DNA from: an uncultured bacterium
GTDB lineage: Bacteria; Fidelibacterota; Marinisomatia; Marinisomatales; UBA1611
Assembly (NCBI GenBank): GCA_964561495.1
Contig: CAZLPW010000005.1
Location: 434 to 64,433, forward strand
Length of the DNA stretch: 64,000 bases
Reading direction: 5' to 3'
This document shows, in pieces, positions 33,256 to 64,000 of the stretch. Both the position numbers and the translations under genes were made by a program. The notes beneath the pieces were generated by a model. That model searched no databases, was not told the DNA's origin, and saw only the letters and a program-made list of their open reading frames with translations. Position 1 is the stretch's first letter. Each line of letters starts with the position of its first letter.

Positions 33256-35229
33256 CTATCTAAGCAGAATCACTTTCCTTTGAATACTATAGTCTTTGTT
33301 ATTAGCATTAATAATATATATACCACTGCTGCACTCATTACCAAATCTATCAAATGCATCCCACTCTAAAGTATGAGTCCCTGTGGTGAATATATTTTTA
33401 CTCCAACTTTGAATTAGCTCTCCTCTGAGACTGTATACTGAAAAGTTAAGTTCTCCAGGTTCACTGATACTTATATCCATGCTTACTCTGGGATTAAACG
33501 GATTAGGATAGGGTTTGCCCAAATAAAAATTTTCTGATACAATACCACTATTTTTTGTGCCCATCGTTGATTCAAATGTGATACTCTTAATATTAAATCC
33601 TGCCGCAACAATCTGAATTTTTAAAAATTTTTGACCACCACTTATCTCTACTCCCTCGGTGACTATATCCTCCCAATTATACCACCCTCCAGTACTAGAA
33701 ACATCGATAACTCCAAGATTTTGTCCATCTAATCGAGCGAAAAAGATACCCCCAGATTCAGGAGCTGAAATACTAAACTTGACATCATAAATACCAGGGC
33801 TAACATTTTCAATAGTATATCCTAACCACTCACCTGCTGCAGTCCAACCAACTGTGAAAGGAATATTCGGATCTTGATCACTTCCTTCCAAGTCAACACC
33901 ATCATTCCTTCCAACCCATCCTTCATTATATCCGCCATCCCCATCATTCCAATAATCACTATCTGAATAGGATATACCTCTTGCCCCAAAATCATAGTAG
34001 GCTGCTGCAATAGTTCCTGGGATAGCATGAGCAGTGAAAGGTTTTGAAATCTCACCATAATCTGGATCAGTTAATGATGCAATGACTCCTGGTCTAGTTA
34101 TACACTCTTCAATTTTTAGACTATTTGCAAAACTTGTCAGACCCATCCCCGCTATATTAGGATCTGGCTGAGCAATGGCCCCAGTTAAATAATCAATAAT
34201 AGTTTGATATTCAGGAGTTACTACCGCTGAATATGGACTCGTTATTTTATCAACTTTTTTGTGAGTCCAGAAGTTCCAGCCAATGTTATTCTCTTCTAAT
34301 AGTTTAAAAACTTCATAATACCAATGATTTGAGTTCTCTCCCGACTCTCCCATCCAAAGAGGAACACCATAATTACTTCTCATATTTATGTAAGATTGTA
34401 TTGTGGTTATATCAGTCTGCCCCCAATATTTATGGAATGAATAGCCCATATTATCGTCCCACGGAGGTGTAAGACCAGAAAAATCTGTCCCATACCAATT
34501 CCCTTCCACCCAAATTAAATGGTTATTGTCTACTTCCCTTATTGCTTCCGTGATATCAATATATAGTTGCTTAAACTCTTCTAGACTAACATTACCTGGC
34601 AAAACTGGCTCATTGATTAAATCGTAGCCCCCAATAAGAGTCTCACTCGAATAGTATTCTGCTATTTCTCTCCAAATTTGTATGGTTAATTCCTTATTCT
34701 CTTCTTCAAGCCAAAGCCGTGCGGTTCCATCACTATCACTTATAGGACCCCCATTCTGAGCTCCTGGTGCACAGTGCATATCTAAAATTATATACATATT
34801 GTAAGGCTCACACCAACTTATCAGCTCATCGATGATTGCGTAACCTATAGGTATTTGTGTGCCAGTTGAATCATAAAATTGCTTATAGTGAAAGGGCACT
34901 CTAATATGATTAAAGCCCCACTCAGCAATTTGATCAATATCAGCCTGAGCAACGTAATTTTCTCTATATAAAATCCAAAAATCTTCCGCAGCCTCAGGAC
35001 CAATAAGATTTTCTACATGATTCTCAATATCTGTTGGTGATTCAAAACCAGAAATCCAAGCCTGATTATGTAGCATATATCCTTCAGGTACGAGCCAACC
35101 TCCTAACCCAAAGCCCCTCAAAAGAATAGGTTCACCATTGCCATCTACGACTTCTCCACTAATATTATGAAGGAACCCTTGTGAAAAAGATAAACAAGTT
35201 GCTAAAAAAGTAATAATTATTATTCGCAT
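33256..35229 (-). CDS. GH5 beta-glucanase (exo-1,3-beta-glucanase-like) with a CBM6-like domain and a T9SS sorting domain
   Basis: GFNHIRVPF, ILDMHCAPGAQNGG and GYDLINEP. The CBM6-like beta-sandwich contains GWYNWEDI. CTD: YPNPFNPRVSM...KVILLR. The start at 35229 (MRIIIITFLATCLSF) gives a signal peptide; the track start is 35250. Confidence 0.85.
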   Translation of the reverse strand: MRIIIITFLATCLSFSQGFLHNISGEVVDGNGEPILLRGFGLGGWLVPEGYMLHNQAWISGFESPTDIENHVENLIGPEAAEDFWILYRENYVAQADIDQIAEWGFNHIRVPFHYKQFYDSTGTQIPIGYAIIDELISWCEPYNMYIILDMHCAPGAQNGGPISDSDGTARLWLEEENKELTIQIWREIAEYYSSETLIGGYDLINEPVLPGNVSLEEFKQLYIDITEAIREVDNNHLIWVEGNWYGTDFSGLTPPWDDNMGYSFHKYWGQTDITTIQSYINMRSNYGVPLWMGESGENSNHWYYEVFKLLEENNIGWNFWTHKKVDKITSPYSAVVTPEYQTIIDYLTGAIAQPDPNIAGMGLTSFANSLKIEECITRPGVIASLTDPDYGEISKPFTAHAIPGTIAAAYYDFGARGISYSDSDYWNDGDGGYNEGWVGRNDGVDLEGSDQDPNIPFTVGWTAAGEWLGYTIENVSPGIYDVKFSISAPESGGIFFARLDGQNLGVIDVSSTGGWYNWEDIVTEGVEISGGQKFLKIQIVAAGFNIKSITFESTMGTKNSGIVSENFYLGKPYPNPFNPRVSMDISISEPGELNFSVYSLRGELIQSWSKNIFTTGTHTLEWDAFDRFGNECSSGIYIINANNKDYSIQRKVILLR

Positions 35230-36425
35230 GTTAAACATTCTCCAAAACAAACAGGTAGAAGCAAAGTATCCATATCACTAACAGTAAGTGATCTATCATT
35301 ATGTTGCCCAACACTACAATAATCTTCTAAAACCTCCCAGCCACCTTGCCATGTATTTGGGAAATACCCATTTCTGAATTTGTAAGTATAACTAGAATGA
35401 GGAGGAAGTATCAAAGTGATTCCCCAAATACTTGAATCCACTGATTGATTCATCTGAATTCCTCCTGGCTGACCAGAACCTAAATTACCCCCTGACAACC
35501 AAACACCAGTCTCTGAAACATTTTGATTTTTCATATCTACTTTAAAAGTTACACTAACATCTTTATAATTATCAGATTTTTCAAAAACTCTAACATAATC
35601 AACTAACATCCTCATTGGAAAGGCACTAGGAGAAACGCCCTGCGCGCCACCCCAATCTCCACCAATCGCAAGATTTAAGATAATATAATGGGGCTCGTCA
35701 AACGGCCATTTTCCAGTGTCTCCATCACTATCATTGTAAACAAAAAAATAAGCTTCATTATCTATTAGATAGCGCAGATAGTGTGGACTCCACTGAAGAG
35801 AGTAAACATGAAAAGAGTCTGTAGCTGTTGATAAAAATTTTGATCCCGATTTTTGGGTATTGCTCATATGATTGTATTCCTCAGTGTGGATTGAACCATG
35901 TATCATTCCATCATCAAATCCAACATGTTCCATGATATCAATCTCGCCGCAGTCTGGCCAACCAATTGTCGATATACTTTCACCTAGCATCCAAATTGCA
36001 GGCCAAGTTCCCTTACCTTTAGGCAGTTTAGCCCTCACATCAAAACGACCATATGTTCTCGATACCTTATTATCAGTGTTAATTCTACCAGAGGTATAGT
36101 CTGAACTATATTCAGTTCCTGTATAATCAGTACCATAATAACCAGGCTCAACAAGACCCTGTAAAACTAAAATACCATCCTCAAGAAAAATATTGGTGTC
36201 TCTGTCCGTATAGGCCTGTAACTCATTGTTAACCCACCCTGGTTGCCATCTCAGTTTATTCCACTTGGAAATATCTAACTCACTTCCATCAAATTCATCT
36301 GACCATACCAAATCCCAGTCATCATTTTCTAATAAATTTGAATCATTATGCCCTTGTCTTTCATCATCATTTTGACACCCGAAAATTGAAAATGAAAAAA
36401 TCATTATTATTAAGAAATTAATCAT
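35220..36425 (-). CDS. GH16 laminarinase-type lipoprotein with a C-terminal carbohydrate-binding-like domain
   Basis: Lipobox IFGC. WSDEFDG, GRFDVRAKLPKGKGTWPAIWMLG and the catalytic GEIDIMEH (ExDxxE). The C-terminal beta-sandwich is VSVTFKVDM...YTYKFRNG. Confidence 0.9.
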   Translation of the reverse strand: MINFLIIMIFSFSIFGCQNDDERQGHNDSNLLENDDWDLVWSDEFDGSELDISKWNKLRWQPGWVNNELQAYTDRDTNIFLEDGILVLQGLVEPGYYGTDYTGTEYSSDYTSGRINTDNKVSRTYGRFDVRAKLPKGKGTWPAIWMLGESISTIGWPDCGEIDIMEHVGFDDGMIHGSIHTEEYNHMSNTQKSGSKFLSTATDSFHVYSLQWSPHYLRYLIDNEAYFFVYNDSDGDTGKWPFDEPHYIILNLAIGGDWGGAQGVSPSAFPMRMLVDYVRVFEKSDNYKDVSVTFKVDMKNQNVSETGVWLSGGNLGSGQPGGIQMNQSVDSSIWGITLILPPHSSYTYKFRNGYFPNTWQGGWEVLEDYCSVGQHNDRSLTVSDMDTLLLPVCFGECLTCE

Positions 36426-36454
36426 TAAAACCTATTCTTATATTTAGCCAGAAG

Positions 36455-37546
36455 CTATTTCAAAAAAAGGATATCTTCTACCTGAGAGTAGTCTTGATTA
36501 TGAATGCGTAAATAATAAGTTCCAGAAGATACTTGGTTGCCGCTTCTATCTGAGCCATTCCAAAAAATATTATTTTCCCCACGATTTAAAAACTGATATT
36601 CTTGGGATTTTATTTCTTTACCTTTTATATCATATATTGTAAAAGAGATTATCCCAGATTCTGACAAAAACACAGGCAATGTAATATTATGGTTAAATGG
36701 ATTTGGATAGGGACTACCTAAAGATAATTTAGATGGCAATTCTTGAGTTTGAATCAAAAGAGGATCTCCATTATATCCTGTCTCCTGTGGAGTCGTTAAA
36801 CACAGAATGAGATATCCTGACTCAAAAACAACATTGCTATAAATAAGATCTGAGTTATTGCCATCCCAAGTATGATTGGCCTTGGACCAGCGCGATGTAT
36901 CATAGTAGTCGAATTCATCTTCCCAAAATAATATAAAATTATTGTCCGTTCCTGCATTGCCAGAATTTGGCACGTATGCGTAGTATTTAACCCAATCATA
37001 AAAAGCATAGACAGGTAAAATACTTGGATTAAAATCTCCGACCCAGTCATCATAAATAGGTTGCCAAATATTCATCATAAGTTTTTGATAGTGATACATT
37101 GAATCAGCATAAAAATTATTTACTGTTCGAATTAATTGATCATCTATAAAAAATTTGACATCTTCATTAGTCCACTCGATTACGTAGATATGAAAGTCTT
37201 CATGTGGATTGACATTCAGTTCTACCAACTCTGGAAGGTCCCACGCATTTTGTATGATAAGGTTGGTCTGGACTTTATCATCATAATTACCCAACCACTC
37301 AAAATCAATCTCATTCCAATAGCTATTACTTGTGTGCCCTTCTTCCCAAAAATCTCGATAAGTGAAAAATGAACTAACCACACCATTTCCATAGGCAGAC
37401 TTCATTCTTACTTCGAACCTACCATAGCGGTATGTGTCATCTGTCCTTAATTCTCCACCTTTGTATGGTTTACAAAAAACAATAGAAACAAGAACAAAAT
37501 TTATGATAATATTTTTCAGTAAATAATTTTTATTCATAATTAACAA
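36455..37546 (-). CDS. GH16 beta-glucanase (ExDxE, licheninase-type motif) with a T9SS sorting domain
   Basis: YRYGRFEVRMKSA...SSFFTY and NEIDFEWLG. CTD: PYPNPFNHNITL...DILFLK. Confidence 0.88.
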   Translation of the reverse strand: MLIMNKNYLLKNIIINFVLVSIVFCKPYKGGELRTDDTYRYGRFEVRMKSAYGNGVVSSFFTYRDFWEEGHTSNSYWNEIDFEWLGNYDDKVQTNLIIQNAWDLPELVELNVNPHEDFHIYVIEWTNEDVKFFIDDQLIRTVNNFYADSMYHYQKLMMNIWQPIYDDWVGDFNPSILPVYAFYDWVKYYAYVPNSGNAGTDNNFILFWEDEFDYYDTSRWSKANHTWDGNNSDLIYSNVVFESGYLILCLTTPQETGYNGDPLLIQTQELPSKLSLGSPYPNPFNHNITLPVFLSESGIISFTIYDIKGKEIKSQEYQFLNRGENNIFWNGSDRSGNQVSSGTYYLRIHNQDYSQVEDILFLK

Positions 37547-37643: not shown

Positions 37644-39119
37644 TCACCTTATCTTACTTCCAAAATCTAGCCTATCATCTGTTGTTAAAATTGGAAAAGA
37701 AGGGACTAAAATAGGATATGGAACTCCTCTCTGGTTAACCATCATATCCGTGCTGGTTAGCTTAATCTTTTCAAACGCACCCATATTAATTTTTATCGTT
37801 TCGGAGTATGCACTCTGGAGAGAATCTATTATAGGATTCATAAACACCAGCCAATCACCCTGATTATCAATTTGTTGATTTTTTTTCCTTACACTGGATA
37901 CATATTTTTTGCTTTTGGATACATCACTCCACATATTATAGTTCAGATTAACGCTCCAATTTTTATCAAGTCCCTTATTGTAACACTCTTTTGTAACCTC
38001 TATATCTCGGATAAGGTCTGCAATAGCGAATCGCAATTGTTCTGGGAATTCGCTACGATTCATTTTCCGTTTTCTAAAGACAAAAGGATGGGATTTTAAA
38101 TGCTGATTTAACTCCTCAACAGTCCAAGGCTTACCATCATAGTCTAGTATTATAGAGCTGGGATTGATATCATTATCTTCAACATTAAAGGTAAACATAT
38201 TATCATCAATCTTATCATCATCCCAAAGCATCTGGTTCAACATTTTTTTCTTGGATGCATCTACTTTAAAGAAATAATCAGCGGCTTTTTCAGAATAACT
38301 GTAAAAAACATCAGAATTAAGATTCATTTTTTTACCACTCATTAAATCTTTTACTGATTTAAGGTACGCATTTTTTGCTTTTTTATCAGTAAGCCTTTCT
38401 TTTACATCGTTCCATAGAATATTTTTATCGTATTCTGTAATCTTTATCTGGTCCTTCCAGCTAACAACTTTCATCAAAACAAATGTACCTTCCTCACTTT
38501 CAAACGGTCCTAATAACCGACCTTTGAAAATACTTTCACTAAATAAAGCATCATGTATTTCATCTAGCTCTCTGTTAAACCAATCAATTTCTTTCGTAGG
38601 TGCATTTCCGCTCCATAGGACATTATGTATGGAATCTAAAGGCACACCAGAAGAGTCAAGCTTCATTATCTTATTAGCTATTTCGAGATTAGGCAGATTT
38701 AAAAACTGAACCTTTACCATTCTTCCAGAAAACTTATACGCATCTTTTAATTCTTTTTCTGTTAGATTAACTTTTGAATGAAACTCTTCAGAAAAATAAA
38801 TCTGGCGCATTGCCTGCTCTCTCCGCCCCTTTAAAAAAGACTCTAAATTTTTGTCGGGAACATTATCTTCGTTCTTGGCATATTCCATTGCGATTAATTT
38901 TTCACTAATCAACGAATTTAAAATTATTTTTTTGTGAATGTAATTGTCTTGCCTGCAATAGTCAGGACGTATTGTATACTCTGATCTTCTAATGAAGTCT
39001 TGTACCGTAATTATACTAGGACCAACCTTTGCTAGAATGATTTCTTCTGGTATTTGGGAATGCTTTGTACAACTAAAAAAGGAAATAAAAAGGATAACTA
39101 AGCGATATAAAAACCCCAT
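37644..39119 (-). CDS. hypothetical lipoprotein with a SurA-N/chaperone-like N-terminus
   Basis: Lipobox FFSC. ILAKVGPSIITVQDFIRRSEY resembles the N-terminal segments of SurA/PpiD, but I saw no parvulin motif. It is the last gene of the receptor operon. Confidence 0.4.
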   Translation of the reverse strand: MGFLYRLVILFISFFSCTKHSQIPEEIILAKVGPSIITVQDFIRRSEYTIRPDYCRQDNYIHKKIILNSLISEKLIAMEYAKNEDNVPDKNLESFLKGRREQAMRQIYFSEEFHSKVNLTEKELKDAYKFSGRMVKVQFLNLPNLEIANKIMKLDSSGVPLDSIHNVLWSGNAPTKEIDWFNRELDEIHDALFSESIFKGRLLGPFESEEGTFVLMKVVSWKDQIKITEYDKNILWNDVKERLTDKKAKNAYLKSVKDLMSGKKMNLNSDVFYSYSEKAADYFFKVDASKKKMLNQMLWDDDKIDDNMFTFNVEDNDINPSSIILDYDGKPWTVEELNQHLKSHPFVFRKRKMNRSEFPEQLRFAIADLIRDIEVTKECYNKGLDKNWSVNLNYNMWSDVSKSKKYVSSVRKKNQQIDNQGDWLVFMNPIIDSLQSAYSETIKINMGAFEKIKLTSTDMMVNQRGVPYPILVPSFPILTTDDRLDFGSKIR

Positions 39120-39128: not shown

Positions 39129-40199
39129 CTAGAATGTAAGACCTACAGTATAGGCCTGAATATTACCCAGAATTCCCATGGTCTTGTAAGTATAGTCAAT
39201 GGTCAGTGCTTTATTATTAAGAAAATAAAGTTTAACCCCTGCTCCAGTTGCAAAACCAAAATCTTTATCATCAGTATTTAAATTTTTCATACCACTTTTT
39301 AAACCACCCCTAAGACTGACCTCACCAAATCCAGGAATCTTATTATCTAAAGAGGCACCAATATTTATTGACTCAGCATTATTATTAGGATGAAGAGCAT
39401 CAGCCGAGATAATAAGATCCATACTATTTGTAACTATCGGCTTTAAAGAAATACCTATTCTAAATATAAGAGGCAACTCCCATTCCGAGGTTCTAAATTG
39501 ACCAGCTACATCCCCATAGTTTCCTTCTTCATACTCTGAAATATCAATAGGCTGATAGCTATCAATTCCATCATATTTCATTCTGGTACCATAATTAGAG
39601 ATACTCATACCTATATTCATTCCATCTTTATTTTTACCAGTAAATGAAAAAAAACTTGTATTAACTAACACACCAAGATCAACAGCAAAAGCGCTTGCTG
39701 AGCTGTGCCATATATTTGAGTTAATATATTTTAATGACGATCCGAATGAAAACCAGGAGACAATCTTCCTTGAAAAAGTGAATGCAGCGGCCACATCAGA
39801 AGCTTGAAACAATTCACCAGTACCTTCTTGGTACTCTAGATTCGTTACCTCCATTTCACCATAATCCAGGTGAGTAATACCAAAACCTATGACCCCAACT
39901 TTTGGAATCACCATAGCCCCACCTGCAAACAACATATCTATATCGACAAACCAAGGTTGAATCATAAAAAGCGCTGAAGATTGTTTTAGACTAGATAGTC
40001 CTGCAGGGTTCCAGTATATCGAAGAAACATCATTTGCTACGGCAACATAAGCCTCTCCCATTGCATTTGCCTCACTACCAACACCAATTTCTAAAAAATT
40101 AGCAGCGGTTGTTCCGTAGCGATTTATTGTTTGACTATACATAATATTTAAGCAGGAAAAAGCGAAAATCATTAGAATTATTATAAGATTATTTTTCAT
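39129..40199 (-). CDS. PorV/PorQ-family outer-membrane beta-barrel
   Basis: GTTAANFLEIGVGSEANAMGEAYVAVANDVSSIYWNPAGL is the family N-terminal signature. The protein ends in ...YTVGLTF with a terminal Phe. Its start overlaps the upstream stop in an ATGA. Confidence 0.7.
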   Translation of the reverse strand: MKNNLIIILMIFAFSCLNIMYSQTINRYGTTAANFLEIGVGSEANAMGEAYVAVANDVSSIYWNPAGLSSLKQSSALFMIQPWFVDIDMLFAGGAMVIPKVGVIGFGITHLDYGEMEVTNLEYQEGTGELFQASDVAAAFTFSRKIVSWFSFGSSLKYINSNIWHSSASAFAVDLGVLVNTSFFSFTGKNKDGMNIGMSISNYGTRMKYDGIDSYQPIDISEYEEGNYGDVAGQFRTSEWELPLIFRIGISLKPIVTNSMDLIISADALHPNNNAESINIGASLDNKIPGFGEVSLRGGLKSGMKNLNTDDKDFGFATGAGVKLYFLNNKALTIDYTYKTMGILGNIQAYTVGLTF

Positions 40200-54247: not shown

Positions 54248-54251
54248 CACG

Positions 54252-55184: not shown

Positions 55185-56814
55185 TTCTATTATATCAGTT
55201 CAAAACCTTTGCGTTAGTTACATAACAAAAGACAGCCCTATTGAGGCTGTGAAAAACGTCTCCTTTGATATTAAAAAAGGAGAGATTTTTGGTCTTGTAG
55301 GTGAATCAGGTAGCGGGAAAAGTACCGTTGTGCAAGCTCTTCTTAGAACTCTCCCACCACCAGGGGTAATTTCAGGAGGCCATGCGTTTTTCAATGAAAA
55401 AGATATTTTTGAATCAACATATGATCAGGTATTGAATTTTCGTTGGAAAGAAATATCTATTGTACTTCAGAGTGCTTTAAATGCATTAAACCCTGTACTT
55501 AAAATTCGAGACCAGATAAAAGATGTGCTTGAGATTCATACAGATATTTCGGAAGATGATATAGATAAGCGCATAAATGAGCTTCTATTACTAGTCGATA
55601 TAGATGCAACTAGATTAGATAGCTATCCGCATCAACTTTCTGGAGGAATGAAACAACGCATTGTGCTTGCAATTGCCCTGGCTCTCATGCCTCCTGTAAT
55701 AATAATGGATGAACCAACTACCGCTTTAGATGTAATTGTTGAGAGAGCTATACTATCTAAGATTATTGATCTAAGAAAAGAGCTGGGCTTTACAATTTTA
55801 TTTATTACTCACGATCTAAATCTTTTATTAGAGTTTGCCAACCGTCTTGCCGTTATGAAAGATGGTAAAATAATAGACCTCGATACTGCACAAAATATAA
55901 AAAATGGAGGCTCTCATCAATATACCGAAAAACTCATTGGTTCCTTGCCCTCTGCCTCGGGTCCAAGGAAAAAAGGACTCCTGTCAAAACCAAAAGAAAA
56001 GATTATTAAAGAAAATCCATTCCTAGAAGTTGTTAACCTTTCAAAAAGCTTTGCTGTATCTGGTTTTTTCAAACCCCAAATGCTTGACGCAGTAAAAGAT
56101 GTGAACTTCAGAATATATCCTGGAGAAATTTTAGGACTAGTAGGTGAGTCTGGTAGCGGGAAAAGTACTATTGGAAAGTTGGTTACAAGGCTTATAAGGC
56201 CAACAGATGGAATTATTAGGATGAATGGGAAAGATATACTGAGTTCTAAAGCAAAAAAAGTTTCGCTTGATTATAGGAGAAGGGTTCAGATGGTATTCCA
56301 AGATCCTTTTAGCTCTTTAAACTCAATACATACTATCTATCATCACCTCTCTCGACCTTTAATTAGACATAGAATAAAAACAGATTCAGAAATGTATGAT
56401 TATGTAATTTATTTATTAGAATCAGTAGGTTTGATTCCAGGTGAGAATTTTGCAACCAAATTTCCGCATGAAATGTCAGGCGGAGAGAGACAACGAGTTG
56501 CAATAGCAAGGGCATTAAGCCTTGGCCCTGAGTTAATTGTCGCTGATGAACCGACTTCAATGCTTGACGTATCAATCAGGATGGAAATTCTTGAAATTTT
56601 TGCTCAAATGCGTATCAAAAAAAATCTGGCAATTATTTTCATTACTCATGATCTCGCATCTGCAAGATACCTAGCTGATAGAATCATTGTATTACAAAAT
56701 GGTCAAATTGTTGAAAAAGGTGCCTCCGAAGAACTTATTCAATCTCCGCAAACTAAATACACAAAACAATTAGTTAAGGCTGCATCCCCTGGCTGGCTAA
56801 AAAATAAAAAATGA
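55177..56814 (+). CDS. fused double ATP-binding protein (OppD-OppF type) of the ABC importer
   Basis: It has two Walker A motifs (GESGSGKST twice), two signature motifs (LSGGMKQR and MSGGERQR) and two Walker B motifs (IIMDEPT and IVADEPT). Confidence 0.92.
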   Translation: MSNSIISVQNLCVSYITKDSPIEAVKNVSFDIKKGEIFGLVGESGSGKSTVVQALLRTLPPPGVISGGHAFFNEKDIFESTYDQVLNFRWKEISIVLQSALNALNPVLKIRDQIKDVLEIHTDISEDDIDKRINELLLLVDIDATRLDSYPHQLSGGMKQRIVLAIALALMPPVIIMDEPTTALDVIVERAILSKIIDLRKELGFTILFITHDLNLLLEFANRLAVMKDGKIIDLDTAQNIKNGGSHQYTEKLIGSLPSASGPRKKGLLSKPKEKIIKENPFLEVVNLSKSFAVSGFFKPQMLDAVKDVNFRIYPGEILGLVGESGSGKSTIGKLVTRLIRPTDGIIRMNGKDILSSKAKKVSLDYRRRVQMVFQDPFSSLNSIHTIYHHLSRPLIRHRIKTDSEMYDYVIYLLESVGLIPGENFATKFPHEMSGGERQRVAIARALSLGPELIVADEPTSMLDVSIRMEILEIFAQMRIKKNLAIIFITHDLASARYLADRIIVLQNGQIVEKGASEELIQSPQTKYTKQLVKAASPGWLKNKK

Positions 56815-58184
56815 TAGAAAATAATGACAAATTCCCTAAAAACTTTATTTGGGGGACCGCAACCTCTAGCTACCAGATAGAAGGAGCATTTGATACTGAT
56901 GGGAAAGGTACTTCGGTCTGGGATACACATAGCCACACTAAAGGAAAAATTAAAAATAATGATACTGGTGATATAGCATGTAACCATTATTCCCTTTGGG
57001 AAGAAGATTGTAAACTATTAAATAATCTAGGTGTTAGCGCATATCGCTTTTCAACAAGCTGGCCAAGAATTTTTCCAAAAGGCATCGAAAGCAAGCCAAA
57101 TATGTTAGGACTAGATTTTTATAGCAGAATAGTGGATACACTTCTGGAGAATGATATTTTACCTTTTCTAACATTAAACCACTGGGATATTCCTCAAGGG
57201 ATTGAAGACTTAGGAGGTTGGCCTAATAGAAATGTTATAGATTATTATCTGGAATATGCTTATTCGCTTTCCAAACATTTAGGTGACCGTGTTAAAAACT
57301 GGATCACTCATAATGAGCCGTGGTGCATAAGCTACAAAGGCTATATTGAGGGTGACTTCCCGCCTGGATTAAAGGACAATTGGTCAAAAAGCATCGCAAC
57401 AACACATCATTTATTACTATCTCATGGTATGGCCATACCAGAAATTAAAAGTAACTCTAAAGAAGCTCAGGTTGGCATAACGCTTAACCTTACTCCTGCT
57501 GTTCCAGCATCTATGAGCACATATGATATTGATGAGTGTAATAGATTTGATGGAGTATTTAATCGGATGTACCTTGATCCATTATTTAAAAAATCATATC
57601 CGAAAGATATTCTTGATTGGCTAATGGAAGACAATCTAATTAAAAAATCTGATGTTGATATTTTAACTGATCAGGATTTGCAAATTATAGGCACAGATGC
57701 AGATTTTTTAGGAGTTAATTATTATAGTAGAGCAATTATAAGAAATAAAAATATTTCCAAAGAAAAAAATCTTCCTGTCGAAATTAAATCCTCAGAGAAA
57801 ACAGATTTTGGATGGGAAGTTCACCCTGAGAGCTTTTATAAATTACTTATTAGAATAAAGAATGATTATTCATTAAAAAAAATATACATTACCGAAAACG
57901 GATGCTCCTATAAGAATGGACCTGACAAAAATAAAATCATTAACGATGATAAACGAATTGATTACCATAGTTCGCACCTATTATCATTGAAAAAAGCTAT
58001 AGACAATGGAGTACCTTGCGATGGGTATTTCGCATGGTCATTGATGGATAATTTTGAGTGGTGCGAAGGTTTTCAACAACGCTTTGGTCTTATCTGGGTT
58101 GACTTTAATTCATTAGAGCGTATTCCTAAAAAAAGTTTTTTCTGGTATAAAAATCTTATTAATAAAAATGGAGTAGAAAAGTAA
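56811..58184 (+). CDS. GH1 beta-glucosidase (cytoplasmic)
   Basis: FIWGTATSSYQIEGA, acid/base THNEPW and nucleophile YITENG. No signal peptide. Confidence 0.95.
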   Translation: MIENNDKFPKNFIWGTATSSYQIEGAFDTDGKGTSVWDTHSHTKGKIKNNDTGDIACNHYSLWEEDCKLLNNLGVSAYRFSTSWPRIFPKGIESKPNMLGLDFYSRIVDTLLENDILPFLTLNHWDIPQGIEDLGGWPNRNVIDYYLEYAYSLSKHLGDRVKNWITHNEPWCISYKGYIEGDFPPGLKDNWSKSIATTHHLLLSHGMAIPEIKSNSKEAQVGITLNLTPAVPASMSTYDIDECNRFDGVFNRMYLDPLFKKSYPKDILDWLMEDNLIKKSDVDILTDQDLQIIGTDADFLGVNYYSRAIIRNKNISKEKNLPVEIKSSEKTDFGWEVHPESFYKLLIRIKNDYSLKKIYITENGCSYKNGPDKNKIINDDKRIDYHSSHLLSLKKAIDNGVPCDGYFAWSLMDNFEWCEGFQQRFGLIWVDFNSLERIPKKSFFWYKNLINKNGVEK

Positions 58185-58187: not shown

Positions 58188-59543
58188 ATGGACAAAAATA
58201 TATCAATTTCCATTACAGCAAAAGATACCAATCAGAGGTTAAAAGATATAGACCCCAAACAATTAACATTTTCCAATGATCATCAATTGCCTACCCTTAA
58301 AATAGATAGCAAACAAAAAAAACAGAGCATCTTAGGTTTTGGAGGAGCCTTTACTGAAGCATCCGCATATGTGTACAGTCAGCTTAATGATGACAAAAAA
58401 AATGAAATTATTAGTGCCTATTTTGGTGAAAATGGTAACCAATATAATTTTGCGCGGACTCATATTAATAGCTGTGATTTTTCTCTTGGAAACTATGCTT
58501 ATTCTGAAGAACCTGGTGATGTTGAATTAAATAATTTTTCTATATCTAGAGATAGAAAATGGCTTATTCCATTTATTAAATCATGCGTTAAACTCGCAAA
58601 AGATCCAGTTTTTATTTTAGCTTCTCCATGGAGCCCTCCAGCGTGGATGAAAACAAATGGTGAAATGAATAATGGAGGAAAACTGATTAATGAATACCAA
58701 AACACTTGGGCAGAGTATTATTGTAAATACATTTTTGAATACGAAAAAGAAGGAATCGATATTTGGGGTATCTCAGTACAGAATGAGCCAATGGCAAAGC
58801 AAACATGGGACTCCTGTATTTATACTTCTGAAGAAGAACGAGATTTTATTAAACATTATTTAGGGCCTGCTTTAGAAAAAAATAATCTAATGCAAAAAAA
58901 ACTAGTAATATGGGATCATAATAGAGATATAATGGTCGAAAGAGCCTCTACTATTTTAAATGATGAAAAGGCATCAAAATATGTATGGGGAACTGGGTTT
59001 CATTGGTACAACGGAGACCACTTTGAGGCCGTCCAAGAAGTTCACGATAAATTTCCAGATAAGAATTTAATTTTCACTGAAGGCTGTCAAGAAAATGGTC
59101 CGCATATTGGATCATGGGCATTAGGTGAACGCTATGCAACTTCAATAATTAATGATTTAAACCGGTGGACAGTAGCCTGGATCGATTGGAATCTTATTTT
59201 AAATGAAAAAGGTGGGCCAAACCATGTAGAGAATCTTTGTAGTGCTCCCATCATTGTAGATACAAAAAAACAGGATATTTTATACCAAAGTTCTTACTAT
59301 TACTTAGGTCATTTTTCTCGATTTATTAAACGCGGAGATAGAATAATTACAACAGATTTGAACAGTCATGATTTGCTTGCATTATCATCTATAGATAGCA
59401 AAGGAACTATAAATACTATTGTTATGAATAAAAAAGAAAAAGCTCTTGGTTTTAAATATTTCAGTGAAAAAAAAAATAAGAATTTTTTACTGCCTCCAAG
59501 ATCAATAATTACCATATCGGAATCAAACTCAGATAATAATTAA
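58188..59543 (+). CDS. GH30 glycosidase (glucosylceramidase / beta-1,6-glucanase family), no signal peptide
   Basis: ILGFGGAFTEASAY, ASPWSPPAWMKTNG, GISVQNEP and LIFTEGC. Confidence 0.88.
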   Translation: MDKNISISITAKDTNQRLKDIDPKQLTFSNDHQLPTLKIDSKQKKQSILGFGGAFTEASAYVYSQLNDDKKNEIISAYFGENGNQYNFARTHINSCDFSLGNYAYSEEPGDVELNNFSISRDRKWLIPFIKSCVKLAKDPVFILASPWSPPAWMKTNGEMNNGGKLINEYQNTWAEYYCKYIFEYEKEGIDIWGISVQNEPMAKQTWDSCIYTSEEERDFIKHYLGPALEKNNLMQKKLVIWDHNRDIMVERASTILNDEKASKYVWGTGFHWYNGDHFEAVQEVHDKFPDKNLIFTEGCQENGPHIGSWALGERYATSIINDLNRWTVAWIDWNLILNEKGGPNHVENLCSAPIIVDTKKQDILYQSSYYYLGHFSRFIKRGDRIITTDLNSHDLLALSSIDSKGTINTIVMNKKEKALGFKYFSEKKNKNFLLPPRSIITISESNSDNN

Positions 59544-59563: not shown

Positions 59564-62500
59564 GTGACCGAATCTTCTCTATATAAAATTTCCGATTTCC
59601 ATCTTATGGATCCATTCTTAATGACCATCACTAGCGGTGGGGACCATTGGATGTATATATCAAGCACAGGCTGCCTTACAGCTGGGAGAAGCAAAGCAGA
59701 GTTCGCACTCTTCCCTTATGTTACTGATGATATACTTCATAGAAATAACAGTTTTACTGGCCCGATTACGATAGTCAGAGTAAGAAAAAAGAATCAACAA
59801 TTAATTTGGGAACCATTCGCAAAGAACACCAATGCATATAATATTATTCGAAATCTTTATAAAAATAGTATTGGTAACGTAATTATTTTTGAAGAAATCA
59901 ATAAAGATCTTGGACTTACTTTTTCCTACCAATGGCAATCCAACTCTGAACAAGGCTTTATAAGAAAATCTCTAATTACCAATCAAAGCAAGAAACAAAT
60001 CGATTTGGATATTCTTGACGGCCTGATGAATATATTACCTGCAGGTATAGAACTTCGAACTACCCAAGAAATGAATAATCTTGCAAATGCATACAAAGTG
60101 ACGGAGTATTTACCTAAAAATAAATGCTCACTCTATTATCTTAATTCATTAATCATGGACAGACCCCAGCCTGGAGAATCATTAAGAGCTAATATCGTAT
60201 CATACTATTCAAATAACAACCCTGAAATATCTGTTTGTGAAAAGGAAATAAACAATTTTAGAGAAAATGGAAAATTCAAAAAAAAATACCACGTTACTGG
60301 TAGACCTGGCTATTTGTTAACTAAATCTAGGTTTAGATTAGAATCTAAAAAAGGGTCAGAGTGGTATTTTTTCGCAGATGTAAATAAAACCCAAAGTCAA
60401 ATTACTCATATAACTAATTGGCTTAAAAACAGCCAAAACATAATCCAGGATGTTGAAAAAGGAATAATTAATAATAATGATAAATTAGTTTTTGCCTTAG
60501 CATCTGCTGATGCTTTTCAACAGACTCGGTCAAATATAAATAATCTACATCATACTGCGAATGTCCTGTTTAATGTTTTAAGAGGCGGGATATTTAATAA
60601 TCAATATGAAATAAATATATCTGATTTTATAAATAATCTTAAAATTAGAAATAAAAAAATATATGAAAACTTTAAGAAAAAATTACCTCTAAATAATAGC
60701 ACCCTTGAGTTGAATGAGTTGATTCATTTTTCAGATAAAACAAAAGATCCTTCGATGATGAGATTATGTCGTGAATATTTACCTCTTACACTAAGCCGCC
60801 GTCATGGTGACCCAAGTAGACCTTGGAATAGATTTGAAATAAAAACAAAAGATGAAAACAATAATGATTTGTTTTACTATGAAGGCAACTGGCGAGATAT
60901 CTTTCAAAACTGGGAGGCTCTAGGTTTAAGCTTCCCTTTAGCAATTGAATCAATGATAGCTAAATTTGTAAACGCAACATCGGTAGATGGTTATAACCCT
61001 TATCGAATAAATAGTGATGGAATAGATTGGGAAGTTAGTGACCCAGATGATCCCTGGAGCTATATAGGCTATTGGAATGATCATCAAATTATTTATTTAC
61101 AAAAACTACTAGAACATTTAAACAACTATGACCATAAAAAATTAAATCAAATTTTTTCTCAAGAAATTTATTCATATGCTAATATCCCGTACAGGTTACG
61201 AACATTTGATAAAATTATATCTAACCCTAAAGAAACTATTGATTTTGACTACGAAAAAAATAAAAAAATATTAGAATCTGTCGAGTCTTACGGTACAGAC
61301 ATAAAACTCATTCAAAATAATAGAGGAAATGTATACCATGTAAATCTTTGCGAAAAATTACTCGTTTTGACGCTTGCTAAGTTCTCAAGCCTTGTTCCAG
61401 ATGGTGGAATTTGGCTAAACACACAAAGGCCCGAGTGGAACGATGCCAATAACGCTTTGGTAGGTTACGGAGCTTCAATGGTAACCGTATATTATTTAAG
61501 AAGATTTCTCAATTTTTTTCAAAATATTTTAAATCAAACTGATATTAAGTCCATATCTATATCTCAAGATGTCAAGGAATGGCTTTTTGAAATAAACGAT
61601 ATATTAATAGAAATAAAGAAAGAACAAAATCTTGGAAAATTGAATGATCAAGATAGAATGAAATTTGTTATAGCGCTAGGAGAATCATTCTCAACTTATA
61701 GATCTAGAGTTTATGACAAAATTTTTAGTAAAAAAGATACATTAAAAACAAAAAAAATATACGAATTCTTAACGCTTGGTAAAAACATATTGAACGATAC
61801 TATAGACTCTAATGAAAAAAAGGGGCTATTTAATGCATATAACATAATAGACTTTAATAAATCCAAAAATAAAGCCCAAATTAATGAACTGGGTATTATG
61901 CTGGAGGGACAAGTTTCTGCTTTAAGTTCTGGAAAATTATCTTTGAATAAAACTATAAAAACAATCAACGCTATATATGATAGTAAACTCTACAGAAAAG
62001 ATCAGAAAAGTTTTATCCTGTATCCCAAAAAAGAATTAATATCATTTCTTGATAAAAACATAATTCCCAATTCTCTTTTTATAAAATGTGCAGTATTAAA
62101 ACAACTGGTTAATTCTGGTGATACTAGGATTATACATAAAGACGTAAAAAACAATCTCCGATTTAATTCAGATTTAATAAATACCCATGTCTTAGAAGAT
62201 TCTTTAAATGAACTAAGAACAACAGATTCTAAGTTTAAAAAATTATCTGATACTGAGTATAAAAGGATACTCGATATTTATGAAACAGTATTTAATCATA
62301 AATACTATACAGGTAGATCTGGTACAATGTTTTCATACGAGGGCATTGGCTCAATTTACTGGCACATGGTTGCTAAACTACTTCTTAGTGTACAAGAGAA
62401 CTACTATTATTTTCATAAACATAGCTCAAACAAACAAAAACTTACTACCCTAGGAAACCTATATTATAAAATAAGAGATGGTCTAAGTTCATCAAAAACA

Positions 62501-62968
62501 CCAAATCAATATGGAGCATTTCCGTTTGACCCTTATTCTCATTCGCCCTCACACTCAGGAGCGCAGCAACCAGGGATGACAGGACAGGTAAAAGAAGAAA
62601 TCCTAACACGATTTGGTGAGCTTGGATGTTTTATAAGAAAACGTGTGATTGTTTTTTCGCCAATTTTACTAAAAAAATCAGAATTTTTGTTTAAGTCTAA
62701 AATTTTTAATTATTATAACGTTTTCAATAATAAATCAGATTTAAAAGTCAAAAAAAACCAACTCGCTTTTACATTTAATCAAGTCCCAATTATTTATGAT
62801 ATTAATCATCAAATTAAAGACGAAATAAGAATAGAATATTTAAGTGGTGAAACAAAATTACTCCGCGGTTCTAAAATTAATTTTGAAATAAGTAAAGAGA
62901 TTTTTAGTAGGAGAGGAAATATTACGAGTATTAAATATTTATTCAATAAAAAACTTTTAAACTTTTAA
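59564..62968 (+). CDS. 1134-aa cytoplasmic protein; putative GH94/GH149/GH161-clan glycoside phosphorylase (beta-1,3-glucan/laminarioligosaccharide phosphorylase candidate)
   Basis: GTG start and no signal peptide. Motifs: RRHGDPSRPWNRF, NWRDIFQNWE, GYWNDHQIIY and TQRPEWNDANNAL. The last resembles the DWND catalytic-Asp region I recall from GH94 phosphorylases. Its size and laminarin-locus context fit bacterial GH149. The family call is from memory and has not been searched. Confidence 0.45.
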   Translation: MTESSLYKISDFHLMDPFLMTITSGGDHWMYISSTGCLTAGRSKAEFALFPYVTDDILHRNNSFTGPITIVRVRKKNQQLIWEPFAKNTNAYNIIRNLYKNSIGNVIIFEEINKDLGLTFSYQWQSNSEQGFIRKSLITNQSKKQIDLDILDGLMNILPAGIELRTTQEMNNLANAYKVTEYLPKNKCSLYYLNSLIMDRPQPGESLRANIVSYYSNNNPEISVCEKEINNFRENGKFKKKYHVTGRPGYLLTKSRFRLESKKGSEWYFFADVNKTQSQITHITNWLKNSQNIIQDVEKGIINNNDKLVFALASADAFQQTRSNINNLHHTANVLFNVLRGGIFNNQYEINISDFINNLKIRNKKIYENFKKKLPLNNSTLELNELIHFSDKTKDPSMMRLCREYLPLTLSRRHGDPSRPWNRFEIKTKDENNNDLFYYEGNWRDIFQNWEALGLSFPLAIESMIAKFVNATSVDGYNPYRINSDGIDWEVSDPDDPWSYIGYWNDHQIIYLQKLLEHLNNYDHKKLNQIFSQEIYSYANIPYRLRTFDKIISNPKETIDFDYEKNKKILESVESYGTDIKLIQNNRGNVYHVNLCEKLLVLTLAKFSSLVPDGGIWLNTQRPEWNDANNALVGYGASMVTVYYLRRFLNFFQNILNQTDIKSISISQDVKEWLFEINDILIEIKKEQNLGKLNDQDRMKFVIALGESFSTYRSRVYDKIFSKKDTLKTKKIYEFLTLGKNILNDTIDSNEKKGLFNAYNIIDFNKSKNKAQINELGIMLEGQVSALSSGKLSLNKTIKTINAIYDSKLYRKDQKSFILYPKKELISFLDKNIIPNSLFIKCAVLKQLVNSGDTRIIHKDVKNNLRFNSDLINTHVLEDSLNELRTTDSKFKKLSDTEYKRILDIYETVFNHKYYTGRSGTMFSYEGIGSIYWHMVAKLLLSVQENYYYFHKHSSNKQKLTTLGNLYYKIRDGLSSSKTPNQYGAFPFDPYSHSPSHSGAQQPGMTGQVKEEILTRFGELGCFIRKRVIVFSPILLKKSEFLFKSKIFNYYNVFNNKSDLKVKKNQLAFTFNQVPIIYDINHQIKDEIRIEYLSGETKLLRGSKINFEISKEIFSRRGNITSIKYLFNKKLLNF

Positions 62969-62977
62969 GAGGAAAAA

Positions 62978-64000
62978 ATGTTAGATATTAAAATAAAAAA
63001 TTTCCATATTTTTTTAAAACTGATCTTGGTTACAGTTTATTTGAATGCTTCAGATCTGTTGAAAGTCAAAAATCAAGTAATCTTAAATAAAGAAAATCAA
63101 CCAGTGTTTTTAAAAGGGTGTAACCTAGGTAATTGGCTAATTCTTGAAATGTGGATGCTTGACTATGCAGGACGAGGTATTCATGATCAAAAACATTTCA
63201 TAGAAATATTGGAAAATAGGTTTGGCATTGTTAAAGCAAATCAATTGATGGAAGTATACAGAAATAATTGGATTACTGAAAAAGATCTAGACATAATTAA
63301 ATCTTTTGGGATGAATACTTTGAGACTTCCATTTGATTACAAAATTTTAATGGACTCAGATCTAAAGCCATTTAAACTAAAAAAAGATGCCTGGAAATGG
63401 ATTGACCATACAATAAACATGGCTCGAAAAAGAGATATGTATGTTATCCTTGATATGCACGGAGCTCCAGGTCGTCAAAGTGGCATGGATCATTCAGGAG
63501 AAGTGGATTATAATAAGCTTTGGGATAGCAAACTATATCAAGAGCAAACGGTTTGGCTTTGGAGACAAATCTCAGATCGTTATAGAAATGATAAAACCGT
63601 CGCAGCCTATGACCTGCTTAATGAGCCTTGGGGAAGTAGTGAAAAAAATCTCAAAAACATAATCCTTAGGATATACAAAGAAATAAGAAAAAATGATGAT
63701 GAACACATAATTGTTTTCCCTGGTCACAGAAGCGGAATAGATTTTTATGAAAATATACGCTCAATCAGATTAGAAAATATAATATACACTATGCACTTTT
63801 ATCCTGGCCTCTTTGGTGGTGGCCCTCCTACTATTTATACACACACTGATTTTATTCAAAATGTAATCCCGTTATGGGAAGAAAAAATGAGACAGTTTGA
63901 TTCACCACTTTTGATTGGAGAGTTTAATGTTGTCTTTAAATCTGCTGGAGCTGGTGAAATGATGCGCCGTTATTTTGATATATACTCTAGTAATCACTGG
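62978..64000 (+). CDS. GH5 beta-glucanase, exported; the 3' end lies beyond the window
   Basis: Not in the ORF track because no stop lies in the window. The frame is open from ATG 62978, which is preceded by AGAGGA. MNTLRLPFDY, ILDMHGAPGRQSG, acid/base AYDLLNEPW and nucleophile LLIGEFN. Confidence 0.85.
   Translation, partial: MLDIKIKNFHIFLKLILVTVYLNASDLLKVKNQVILNKENQPVFLKGCNLGNWLILEMWMLDYAGRGIHDQKHFIEILENRFGIVKANQLMEVYRNNWITEKDLDIIKSFGMNTLRLPFDYKILMDSDLKPFKLKKDAWKWIDHTINMARKRDMYVILDMHGAPGRQSGMDHSGEVDYNKLWDSKLYQEQTVWLWRQISDRYRNDKTVAAYDLLNEPWGSSEKNLKNIILRIYKEIRKNDDEHIIVFPGHRSGIDFYENIRSIRLENIIYTMHFYPGLFGGGPPTIYTHTDFIQNVIPLWEEKMRQFDSPLLIGEFNVVFKSAGAGEMMRRYFDIYSSNHW

What the first reader, a model, noticed from the sequence alone, without database searches (positions are those of the whole stretch)
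33256..64000. 31-kb bipartite beta-glucan locus combining T9SS-secreted enzymes, a TonB receptor, an Opp-type ABC importer and cytoplasmic GH/phosphorylase steps
Two divergent arms share one control region at 49030-49288.
- Minus arm: multi-CBM protein, the receptor operon, GH16 (ExDxE) with CTD, GH16 (ExDxxE) lipoprotein, and GH5-CBM6-CTD.
- Plus arm: LacI, PA14-GH16, SBP5/permease/permease/double-ATPase, GH1, GH30, the 1134-aa phosphorylase-like protein, and an exported GH5.

The implied route has four steps. Enzymes exported by T9SS depolymerise the glycan outside the cell. The TonB-dependent receptor imports the products across the outer membrane. They are trimmed in the periplasm. An ABC transporter then takes up oligosaccharides, which are hydrolysed or phosphorolysed in the cytoplasm. 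Canonical Bacteroidota laminarin PULs instead use SusCD plus MFS-type transport and periplasmic GH3/GH30. This locus mixes FCB-type outer-membrane logic with Thermotoga- or Firmicutes-type inner-membrane logic.
Basis: partly seen in the sequence, partly recalled or inferred. Interest (0 to 1): 0.65.

Follow-up and report, generated by a model that had tools for sequence, protein, structure and literature searches.

The report
Marinimicrobial beta-glucan uptake and breakdown locus
This is a real, conserved gene cluster with which an uncultured marine bacterium (SAR406/Marinimicrobia) most likely captures, imports and digests algal beta-glucans such as laminarin, and its outer-membrane part uses a widespread, undescribed receptor module instead of the textbook SusC/SusD pair.

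Summary
The 1134-aa protein is a GH149 beta-1,3-glucan phosphorylase. By best hits the organism is Marinimicrobia (SAR406). The divergent two-arm layout recurs in at least 10 independent marine contigs whose binding protein is only 60-91% identical, so the linkage is maintained. Other relatives keep the outer-membrane arm but pair it with a Na+/solute symporter and GH3, so the inner-membrane part is swappable. The LacI + Opp-type ABC + GH149 arm matches the published 'type I GH149 cluster' of Proteobacteria, so the hybrid is a recombination of known modules.

The less expected part is the 'receptor operon'. It holds a TonB-dependent receptor, a 1156-aa protein with no Pfam or NCBIfam family, a PorV/PorQ-family barrel and a SurA-like lipoprotein. 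This module is strictly syntenic across many FCB-group phyla, without SusD, next to varied glycan-degrading genes. The large protein's C-terminus resembles only the retained sorting domains of PorU and PorZ. I infer that it is a T9SS-exported partner of the receptor, held on its own PorV-like barrel.

The shared control region carries a conserved TGCA-box cluster. A conserved terminator hairpin separates it from the receptor operon, so co-regulation is unproven.

The parts
46558..49029 (-). 823-aa non-catalytic surface glycan-binding protein (CBM4_9 + CBM9 + T9SS type A CTD)
   Evidence: Pfam (CBM9_1 36.5 bits, Por_Secre_tail 34.6 bits). TIGR04183 matches. A homologue lies upstream of the receptor in orthologous loci.
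46511..46544 (-). Terminator-like hairpin (14-bp stem followed by a T run) between the CBM gene and the receptor gene
   Evidence: A G+C-rich hairpin of different sequence sits at the same position in L004, L005, L008, L013 and Caldithrix L086.
43666..46446 (-). 926-aa TonB-dependent receptor (CarboxypepD_reg N-terminal domain, Plug, beta-barrel); not SusC/RagA by NCBIfam
   Evidence: It lies directly upstream of the 1156-aa family member in 66 of 69 assessable loci.
40196..43666 (-). 1156-aa secreted protein of a large family with no Pfam or NCBIfam model. It has a signal peptide, a beta-rich N-terminal region with invariant Asp-rich DxDxDG-type motifs that I read as Ca-binding (not tested), an FN3-like domain and Ig-like domains. 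Proposed surface partner of the receptor.
   Evidence: No Pfam family. 3203 clusters at 50% identity. AF2 model with mean pLDDT 79.5 and pTM 0.69. Invariant residues are D/G/W/P/N/Y, with no invariant Cys or His.
40199..40519 (-). C-terminal beta-sandwich of the 1156-aa protein (residues ~1050-1156), T9SS-CTD-like. It is closest to the retained CTDs of PorU and PorZ.
   Evidence: NCBIfam PorZ/PorU C-termini. Foldseek: PorZ 5m11 E 3e-7 and PorU 6za2 E 1e-5. Profile against PDB: PorU CTD E 0.021 and PorZ CTD E 0.079. Weak CHU_C or Por_Secre_tail hits in 5 of 20 family members.
39129..40199 (-). 356-aa PorV/PorQ-family outer-membrane beta-barrel (a paralogue, not canonical PorV or PorQ). Proposed anchor for the 1156-aa protein.
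   Evidence: NF033709 197 bits (cut-off 90). The PorV and PorQ equivalogs score below cut-off. It overlaps the upstream gene by 4 nt. It lies directly downstream of the family member in 67 of 73 loci.
37644..39119 (-). 491-aa lipoprotein, SurA-like (N-terminal chaperone domain only)
   Evidence: Lipobox FFSC. SurA_N_2 scores below threshold in the window and three orthologues. SurA_N + PPIC rotamase scoring above the Pfam cut-off is present in the syntenic homologues of L083 and L023, and a marginal rotamase match in L022.
36455..37546 (-). GH16 of lichenase type (EIDFE) with a T9SS CTD
   Evidence: Fibrobacter 1,3-1,4-beta-glucanase, E 5.5e-46.
35220..36425 (-). GH16 of laminarinase type (EIDIME), lipoprotein
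   Evidence: Rhodothermus laminarinase 3iln, E 3.2e-69.
33256..35250 (-). GH5 + CBM6 + T9SS CTD beta-glucanase
   Evidence: CelC; exo- and endo-beta-1,3-glucanases.
49030..49288 (.). 259-bp divergent control region with TGCA boxes (wTGCAAw) at 49181 and 49221 inside a 22-nt imperfect palindrome
   Evidence: The boxes are 16-fold enriched in 14 orthologous intergenic regions, and 0 of 2000 shuffles reach the observed count.
49289..50317 (+). LacI-family regulator
50336..51616 (+). PA14 + GH16 (EIDIFE) lipoprotein
51606..53264 (+). SBP_bac_5 substrate-binding lipoprotein of the oligosaccharide-binding clade
   Evidence: Vibrio chitooligosaccharide CBP, E 3e-77; further SBP5 entries that I recall from memory as Thermotoga sugar-binding proteins.
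53261..55184 (+). Two ABC permeases (OppB/OppC type)
55177..56814 (+). Fused double ABC ATPase (OppD/F type)
   Evidence: two ABC_tran stretches.
56811..58184 (+). Cytoplasmic GH1 beta-glucosidase
   Evidence: 538 bits. No signal peptide.
58188..59543 (+). Cytoplasmic GH30 (glucosylceramidase/SrfJ-like)
59564..62968 (+). GH149 beta-1,3-glucan phosphorylase, cytoplasmic
62978..64000 (+). GH5 with an N-terminal signal or anchor, cut by the window end (615 aa in identical contigs)

Best explanation
This is a beta-glucan (laminarin and mixed-linkage glucan) utilisation locus of a marine Marinimicrobia bacterium. It is built from two modules.

**Module 1, the minus arm, conserved.** T9SS exports a non-catalytic CBM protein and endo-glucanases (lichenase-type GH16 and GH5-CBM6). 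Oligosaccharides cross the outer membrane through a SusD-less TonB-dependent receptor. I infer that this receptor works with the 1156-aa protein. That protein would be exported by T9SS and kept on the surface because its uncleaved, PorU/PorZ-like C-terminal domain binds the cognate PorV/PorQ-family barrel encoded next to it. A SurA-like lipoprotein would assist assembly.

**Module 2, the plus arm, swappable.** It holds a LacI regulator, a PA14-GH16 lipoprotein, an SBP5-type ABC importer, and cytoplasmic GH149 phosphorolysis with GH30 and GH1 hydrolysis. These steps would yield glucose-1-phosphate and glucose.

**Shown:** gene identities, predicted localisation signals, synteny and conservation.

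**Inferred:** substrates, order of steps, the partnership of the 1156-aa protein with the receptor and the barrel, and co-regulation.
For: - Domains and closest solved relatives.
- Localisation signals.
- The bipartite layout is conserved in 10 of 11 metagenome contigs that have enough flank and an SBP5 at least 60% identical.
- The minus arm is conserved with a different inner-membrane arm in L004, L005 and Caldithrix.
- The triad receptor / ~1100-aa protein / PorV-family is adjacent in 57 of 62 assessable loci. In the other 5 it lies within 9 kb.
- The three proteins co-diverge (r 0.77-0.88), and paralogous modules within one genome are equally diverged.
- Neighbouring genes are CTD proteins, LacI, GH3, GH9, GH16, GH30, GH95, SSF and ABC genes.
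- The C-terminal domain matches only PorU and PorZ CTDs, by three methods.
- There is precedent for retained CTDs bound to cognate PorV-like barrels, and for clustered cargo and barrel genes (PMC10202324).
Against: - There are no expression, binding or activity data.
- The Foldseek matches have TM of at most 0.13, and the profile hits are marginal (E 0.02-0.08). The CTD assignment is therefore domain-level and weak in each single test.
- No complex prediction was possible.
- The function of the ~1000-residue N-terminal part is unknown.
- A conserved terminator hairpin and the absence of TGCA boxes upstream of the receptor argue against simple joint control of both arms.
- The lichenase-type GH16 and the GH5 enzymes leave the natural substrate open (laminarin, mixed-linkage glucan or both).
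- The phylum assignment rests on best hits, not on marker genes.
Confidence: 0.7

Rival explanations
1. The 1156-aa protein, the PorV-like barrel and the SurA-like lipoprotein are not receptor partners. Instead they form a locus-dedicated T9SS sorting or attachment sub-complex, analogous to PorU-PorV or PorZ-PorQ, that processes or anchors the CTD-bearing enzymes and CBM protein encoded around it.
For:
- The best structural and profile hits are PorZ and PorU.
- CTD cargo genes are the commonest neighbours, 23 of 88.
- A PPIase-type chaperone is associated in some loci.
Against: - The family has no invariant Cys or His, so it has no C25/PorU-type catalytic dyad.
- The similarity to PorU and PorZ is confined to the C-terminal domain.
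- The pair is always coupled to a TonB-dependent receptor and co-diverges with it.
- Several paralogous modules occur per genome (L021 and L047; L043). This fits substrate-specific uptake units better than secretion machinery.
Confidence: 0.2
2. The two arms are independent neighbours. One is an outer-membrane beta-glucan capture operon. The other is a separate scavenging system for small beta-1,3-oligosaccharides, the type I GH149 cluster. They are adjacent by history and separately regulated.
For: - Relatives carry the same minus arm with SSF/GH3 instead.
- Type I GH149 clusters exist on their own in Proteobacteria (PMC5827456).
- SBP5 operons 68% identical occur without the other arm (L101-L103, L109).
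- A terminator hairpin lies upstream of the receptor operon.
Against: - Divergent linkage is retained in 10 of 11 informative contigs at 60-91% SBP5 identity.
- The plus arm itself carries exported GH16 and GH5 enzymes.
- In L116, enzymes of the minus arm sit in the plus arm.
- Both arms match the same substrate class.
- There is no compositional sign of recent transfer.
Confidence: 0.12
3. The main natural substrate is not laminarin but a mixed-linkage or other beta-glucan, for example algal beta-1,3/1,4-glucan.
For: - The secreted GH16 is lichenase-type.
- The GH5-CBM6 is nearest CelC-like enzymes.
- The Caldithrix orthologous module sits with GH9, GH5 and GH3.
Against: - GH149 is a beta-1,3-specific phosphorylase family (PMC5827456).
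- One GH16 is laminarinase-type by its closest solved relatives, and a second, PA14-GH16, carries the same ExDxxE motif.
- GH30 of the glucosylceramidase/SrfJ type could remove beta-1,6 branches, as reported for Formosa FbGH30 (PMC6246565); this role is not tested here.
Confidence: 0.2

Closest known systems
Bacteroidota laminarin PULs (Formosa, Gramella; SusC/SusD + GH16/GH17/GH30/GH3 + MFS)
   Same: Co-localised regulator, TonB-dependent receptor, surface glycan-binding proteins and GH16/GH30 enzymes. GH149 also occurs in some of these PULs (PMC6246565, PMC5827456).
   Different: This locus has no SusD, and the receptor does not match the SusC/RagA model. Surface proteins are displayed through T9SS CTDs rather than as lipoproteins. 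Inner-membrane uptake is by an SBP5-type ABC importer. Final depolymerisation is cytoplasmic and partly phosphorolytic.
Type I and type II GH149 gene clusters of Proteobacteria (Kuhaudomlarp et al. 2018, PMC5827456)
   Same: The plus arm matches type I: LacI, COG0747-type SBP, two permeases, two ATPase domains and GH149. The presence of a TonB-dependent receptor with GHs matches type II.
   Different: Type I was described as lacking an extracellular laminarinase and an outer-membrane transporter. Here both are present in one divergent locus. The ATPases are fused. The host is Marinimicrobia and uses T9SS.
Vibrio chitin / chitobiose pathway and the Thermotoga maritima laminarin ABC system
   Same: The flow is the same: extracellular depolymerisation, SBP5-type oligosaccharide ABC import, then cytoplasmic glycosidase or phosphorylase. 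The closest solved SBP is the Vibrio chitooligosaccharide-binding protein.
   Different: The polymer differs. Outer-membrane passage is by a TonB-dependent receptor module rather than a porin, or no outer-membrane step at all. The phosphorylase is GH149 rather than GH94.
T9SS cognate-barrel anchoring: PorU-PorV, PorZ-PorQ, and type B CTD cargo with PorP/SprF (review PMC10202324)
   Same: A CTD-bearing protein is encoded next to a PorV-like barrel. The C-terminal domain is most like the uncleaved CTDs of PorU and PorZ.
   Different: The 1156-aa protein has no peptidase dyad, and nothing beyond its C-terminal domain was shown to resemble PorU or PorZ. The barrel is a paralogue below the PorV and PorQ equivalog cut-offs. 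The pair is always coupled to a TonB-dependent receptor in glycan loci.

Membership tests
SusC/SusD-type polysaccharide utilisation locus | SusC/RagA-family TonB-dependent transporter | tested here: not met
   NCBIfam lists no SusC/RagA model among the hits at E <= 0.01. I did not confirm that the library holds that model. Only the generic Plug, barrel and CarboxypepD_reg domains match.
SusC/SusD-type polysaccharide utilisation locus | SusD-family lipoprotein encoded next to the transporter | tested here: not met
   The downstream gene has no Pfam family. SusD is not among the 25 commonest families in 88 neighbours of 25 related loci.
SusC/SusD-type polysaccharide utilisation locus | Co-localised CAZymes and a regulator | tested here: met
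GH149 beta-1,3-glucan phosphorylase | Full-length similarity to characterised members, above the curated cut-off | tested here: met
   NF058639 1442 bits against 1150. Pro_7066 structure 6hq6 E 2e-300 over residues 5-1124.
GH149 beta-1,3-glucan phosphorylase | Conserved catalytic and phosphate-binding residues; phosphorolytic activity | not tested
   Residues were not checked one by one. Activity needs an enzyme assay.
Type I GH149 cluster (PMC5827456) | LacI/AraC regulator + SBP (COG0747) + two permeases + two ATPase domains + GH149 | tested here: met
   definition.
Type I GH149 cluster (PMC5827456) | No extracellular laminarinase and no outer-membrane transporter in the cluster | tested here: not met
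   Secreted GH16 and GH5 enzymes and a TonB-dependent receptor are present.
T9SS cargo with type A CTD | Por_Secre_tail / TIGR04183 domain at the C-terminus, above cut-off | tested here: met
   Met for the CBM protein, GH16-CTD and GH5-CBM6-CTD. Not met for the 1156-aa protein.
PorV/PorQ family | Match to the family model above cut-off | tested here: met
   NF033709 197 bits against 90.
Canonical PorV or PorQ (equivalog) | Match to the equivalog model above cut-off | tested here: not met
   PorV 89 bits against 250; PorQ 93 bits against 220.
PorU sortase / C25 peptidase | Gingipain-like domain with a Cys/His dyad | tested here: not met
   No Peptidase_C25 hit. The T9SS_sortase model matches only residues 1089-1142 at 13.9 bits. 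No invariant Cys or His in the family alignments.
SurA/PpiD-type periplasmic chaperone | SurA N-terminal domain and PPIC rotamase domain | tested here: inconclusive
   SurA_N_2 scores 18.9-24.4 bits (cut-off 28.5) in four orthologues, and no rotamase is detected in them. Both domains score above cut-off in the syntenic homologues of L083 and L023; L022 has only a marginal rotamase match (27.4 against 27).

The most novel reading that the evidence does not exclude
The four-gene unit (TonB-dependent receptor, ~1100-aa CTD-like protein, cognate PorV/PorQ-family barrel, SurA-like lipoprotein) is an undescribed, SusD-independent glycan capture and import machine coupled to T9SS. It would define the PUL equivalents of the non-Bacteroidia FCB phyla: Marinimicrobia, Calditrichota, Ignavibacteriota, Rhodothermia, KSB1 and others. 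The large protein would play the role of SusD or a surface glycan-binding protein, and would be tethered by a retained sorting domain rather than a lipid anchor.
Probability: 0.4. Interest if true: 0.85.

Novelty: new variant of a known kind. Interest (0 to 1): 0.62.

Why it matters
**Carbon cycling.** Laminarin is a major marine carbon flux. SAR406/Marinimicrobia are abundant but uncultured in the ocean, and only one enzyme from the phylum has been characterised (PMC12296878). This locus gives a concrete, conserved route by which they could consume algal beta-glucans. It also shows that the inner-membrane and cytoplasmic strategy is modular within the clade: ABC + phosphorylase in some members, Na+ symporter + GH3 in others.

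**Receptor module.** The receptor / 1156-aa / PorV-like / SurA-like module offers a testable answer to how FCB bacteria without SusD couple surface glycan capture to TonB-dependent import. It would also serve as a genomic marker for finding PUL-like loci outside the Bacteroidia. Cultured carriers exist, including Caldithrix abyssi, Ignavibacterium album and Rosettibacter firmus.

Tried and rejected
- **PorU-like sortase.** Rejected as the identity of the 1156-aa protein. There is no C25 domain and no invariant Cys or His.
- **Classical LacI operator.** I looked for TGnnAnCGnTnnCA and for 14-20 bp palindromes in all intergenic gaps. None is convincing. Only the TGCA-box cluster stands out.
- **Rfam.** Nothing found in the window.
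- **Literature.** Searches combining PorV, TonB, SusD, Marinimicrobia, Ignavibacteria, Calditrichota, Melioribacter and Caldithrix found no description of the module.
- **Recent transfer of the plus arm.** Composition gives no support.
- **Exact-sequence look-ups.** The look-ups for GH149 and for Calab_3088 failed, probably because of start-codon differences. I used neighbouring proteins instead.

Full report
**Observation**

The minus arm holds:
- a CBM4_9 + CBM9 + T9SS-CTD protein (46558-49029);
- a TonB-dependent receptor (43666-46446);
- a GH16 with EIDFE and a CTD;
- a GH16 lipoprotein with EIDIME;
- a GH5-CBM6-CTD protein.

The plus arm holds LacI, a PA14-GH16 lipoprotein, an SBP_bac_5 lipoprotein, two permeases, a fused double ATPase, GH1, GH30, the 1134-aa protein and a truncated GH5.

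Motifs, lipoboxes and the lack of signal peptides on GH1, GH30 and GH149 were read from the translations. The 1134-aa protein is a GH149 beta-1,3-glucan phosphorylase: the NCBIfam equivalog scores 1442 bits against a cut-off of 1150, and PDB 6hq6 matches at E 2e-300. Identical loci were assembled from at least three samples. Beyond the window end, the GH5 is 615 aa. It is followed by a CotH/LTD/CTD protein and a convergent SSF gene.

**Organism**

Homologues of the 1156-aa protein at 73-100% identity come from marine metagenomes. Where they are named, the names are Candidatus (Neo)marinimicrobiota. The nearest species-representative genome is a Neomarinimicrobiota MAG at 85% identity. The assignment to SAR406/Marinimicrobia (now Fidelibacterota, PMC11652737) therefore rests on best hits.

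**Substrate**

- The lipoprotein GH16 is nearest to laminarinases (Rhodothermus 3iln, E 3e-69).
- The secreted GH16 is nearest to Fibrobacter 1,3-1,4-beta-glucanase (E 5e-46).
- The GH5-CBM6 is nearest to CelC-type enzymes and beta-1,3-glucanases.
- The GH30 is nearest to SrfJ and glucosylceramidase-type enzymes.
- The SBP is nearest to the Vibrio chitooligosaccharide-binding protein and to other SBP5 entries that I recall from memory as Thermotoga sugar-binding proteins, not to peptide binders.

Beta-1,3 and beta-1,3/1,4 glucans are the best-supported targets.

**Are the arms linked?**

A metagenome scan with the SBP returned 44 loci. I annotated them by phmmer with the window's proteins. Ten of the eleven contigs with an SBP at least 60% identical and enough upstream flank carry the divergent receptor arm. 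Most also show the full LacI / PA14-GH16 / ABC / GH1 / GH30 / GH149 / GH5 order.

Other Marinimicrobia (L004, L005), and the cultured Caldithrix abyssi, keep the same outer-membrane arm. They pair it with LacI + SSF symporter + MFS or GH3 instead. So the outer-membrane module is conserved and the inner-membrane module is exchangeable.

The ABC + LacI + GH149 arm equals the 'type I' GH149 cluster described in Proteobacteria, and clusters containing a TonB-dependent receptor are 'type II' (PMC5827456). This locus joins the two.

**Regulation**

The 259-bp gap contains a 22-nt imperfect palindrome with TGCAA/TTGCA ends. Across 14 orthologous gaps, wTGCAAw boxes occur at 18.4 per kb, against 1.16 per kb in the window overall. 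None of 2000 shuffles reached the observed count. The region is therefore a conserved control element.

Two findings argue against simple joint control:
- A strong terminator-like hairpin lies between the CBM gene and the receptor gene (46511-46544). A hairpin of different sequence sits at the same place in five other lineages, including Caldithrix.
- No TGCA box and no classical LacI operator lies upstream of the receptor.

Joint control of both arms remains unproven.

**The receptor module**

The 1156-aa protein has no Pfam or NCBIfam family. It nevertheless belongs to a family of 3203 clusters at 50% identity.

In 80 loci from species-representative genomes, the order receptor / family member / PorV-family barrel is adjacent in 57 of 62 assessable cases. 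In the other five the three genes lie within 9 kb. These genomes include Marinimicrobia, Calditrichia, Ignavibacteria and Melioribacteraceae, Rhodothermales and Balneolales, KSB1, Krumholzibacteriia, Eisenbacteria and Stahlbacteria.

Pairwise identities of the three proteins correlate (r 0.77-0.88, Mantel p 0.001). Two modules within one Calditrichia genome are equally diverged in all three proteins: 36%, 37% and 40%. Part of this correlation reflects shared species phylogeny.

Same-strand neighbours are CTD proteins (23 of 88), LacI (8), and GH3, GH9, GH16, GH30, GH95, glycoamylase, SSF and ABC permeases. SusD is not among the 25 commonest families listed.

The fourth gene is SurA-like. Four orthologues give sub-threshold SurA_N hits, and the distant syntenic homologues of L083 and L023 carry SurA_N + PPIC rotamase above cut-off.

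**What the 1156-aa protein may be**

With a two-clade alignment, AF2 gave a usable model (pLDDT 79.5, pTM 0.69). The protein is mostly beta. It has Asp-rich DxDxDG motifs with invariant residues that I read as Ca-binding (not tested), an FN3-like segment, Ig-like domains and a C-terminal beta-sandwich.

Three independent tests pick the same relatives, and only for the C-terminal domain:
- NCBIfam: PorZ and PorU C-termini.
- Foldseek: PorZ 5m11 at E 3e-7 and PorU 6za2 at E 1e-5, with TM of at most 0.13.
- Profile against PDB: PorU CTD at E 0.021 and PorZ CTD at E 0.079.

Each test is weak on its own. PorU and PorZ are the T9SS components whose sorting domains are not cleaved and stay bound to PorV and PorQ. 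Type B cargo genes likewise cluster with cognate PorP/SprF barrels (PMC10202324).

The family has no invariant Cys or His, so a PorU-like peptidase role is rejected. My inference is a surface-tethered receptor partner, functionally in the place of SusD or a surface glycan-binding protein. The rival reading is a locus-specific T9SS sorting sub-complex.

**Novelty**

Literature searches found no description of this module or of a Marinimicrobia beta-glucan locus. The only characterised enzyme from the phylum is a GH16 (PMC12296878). The library covers open-access papers only.

As a whole, the locus is a new variant of known PUL-like systems. The receptor module may be more than that.

Noticed in passing
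window 37644-46446; loci L004-L086: The unit receptor / ~1100-aa unannotated protein / PorV-family barrel (+ SurA-like lipoprotein) is a strictly syntenic, co-diverging module across many FCB-group phyla. It occurs in several paralogous copies per genome (L021 and L047; tandem in L043). The large protein has no Pfam or NCBIfam model despite more than 3000 clusters at 50% identity.
   Followed up: partly
window 46511-46544 (minus strand); same position in L004, L005, L008, L013, L086: A G+C-rich hairpin followed by a T run lies directly after the CBM9-CTD gene and before the receptor gene. Its position is conserved but its sequence is not. It could be a terminator, an attenuator or an mRNA-stabilising element that sets different expression levels.
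   Followed up: partly
window 49503-49519, inside the LacI gene: A perfect palindrome, ATGCAAA-TTT-TTTGCAT, is built from the same TGCA boxes that cluster in the control region. It lies ~210 nt into the lacI coding sequence and may be an autoregulatory operator.
   Followed up: no
window 28800-31146 (minus strand), around 30141-30149: The neighbouring CBM48-like + GH13 alpha-amylase gene is split into 341-aa and 452-aa ORFs that overlap at an A9 homopolymer. The near-identical contigs L001 and L002 call a single 781-aa product. This is either an assembly indel or a genuine frameshift.
   Followed up: partly
window 28800-33200: Alpha-glucan genes (GH13 and a CBM48-GH13 protein) directly abut the beta-glucan locus. 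This adjacency is also present in the near-identical contigs L001 and L002.
   Followed up: no
window 26474-28840; L087 16680-20252: Large CotH + lamin-tail-domain + T9SS-CTD proteins flank the locus on both sides. Their role is unknown.
   Followed up: no
window 35220-36425 (N-terminus of the GH16 lipoprotein): The lipobox Cys is followed by QNDDE. From memory, this resembles the Bacteroidota lipoprotein surface-export signal. The enzyme may be surface-exposed rather than periplasmic.
   Followed up: no
L116 (metagenome contig Ga0233445_1000209): This is a variant of the locus. GH16-CTD, the GH16 lipoprotein and GH5-CBM6-CTD follow GH1 in the plus arm, in place of GH30 and GH149. It shows enzyme shuffling between the arms.
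   Followed up: no
window 7221-9824: An 867-aa Kelch-repeat protein with a T9SS CTD. It is another secreted protein of unknown role in the same window.
   Followed up: no
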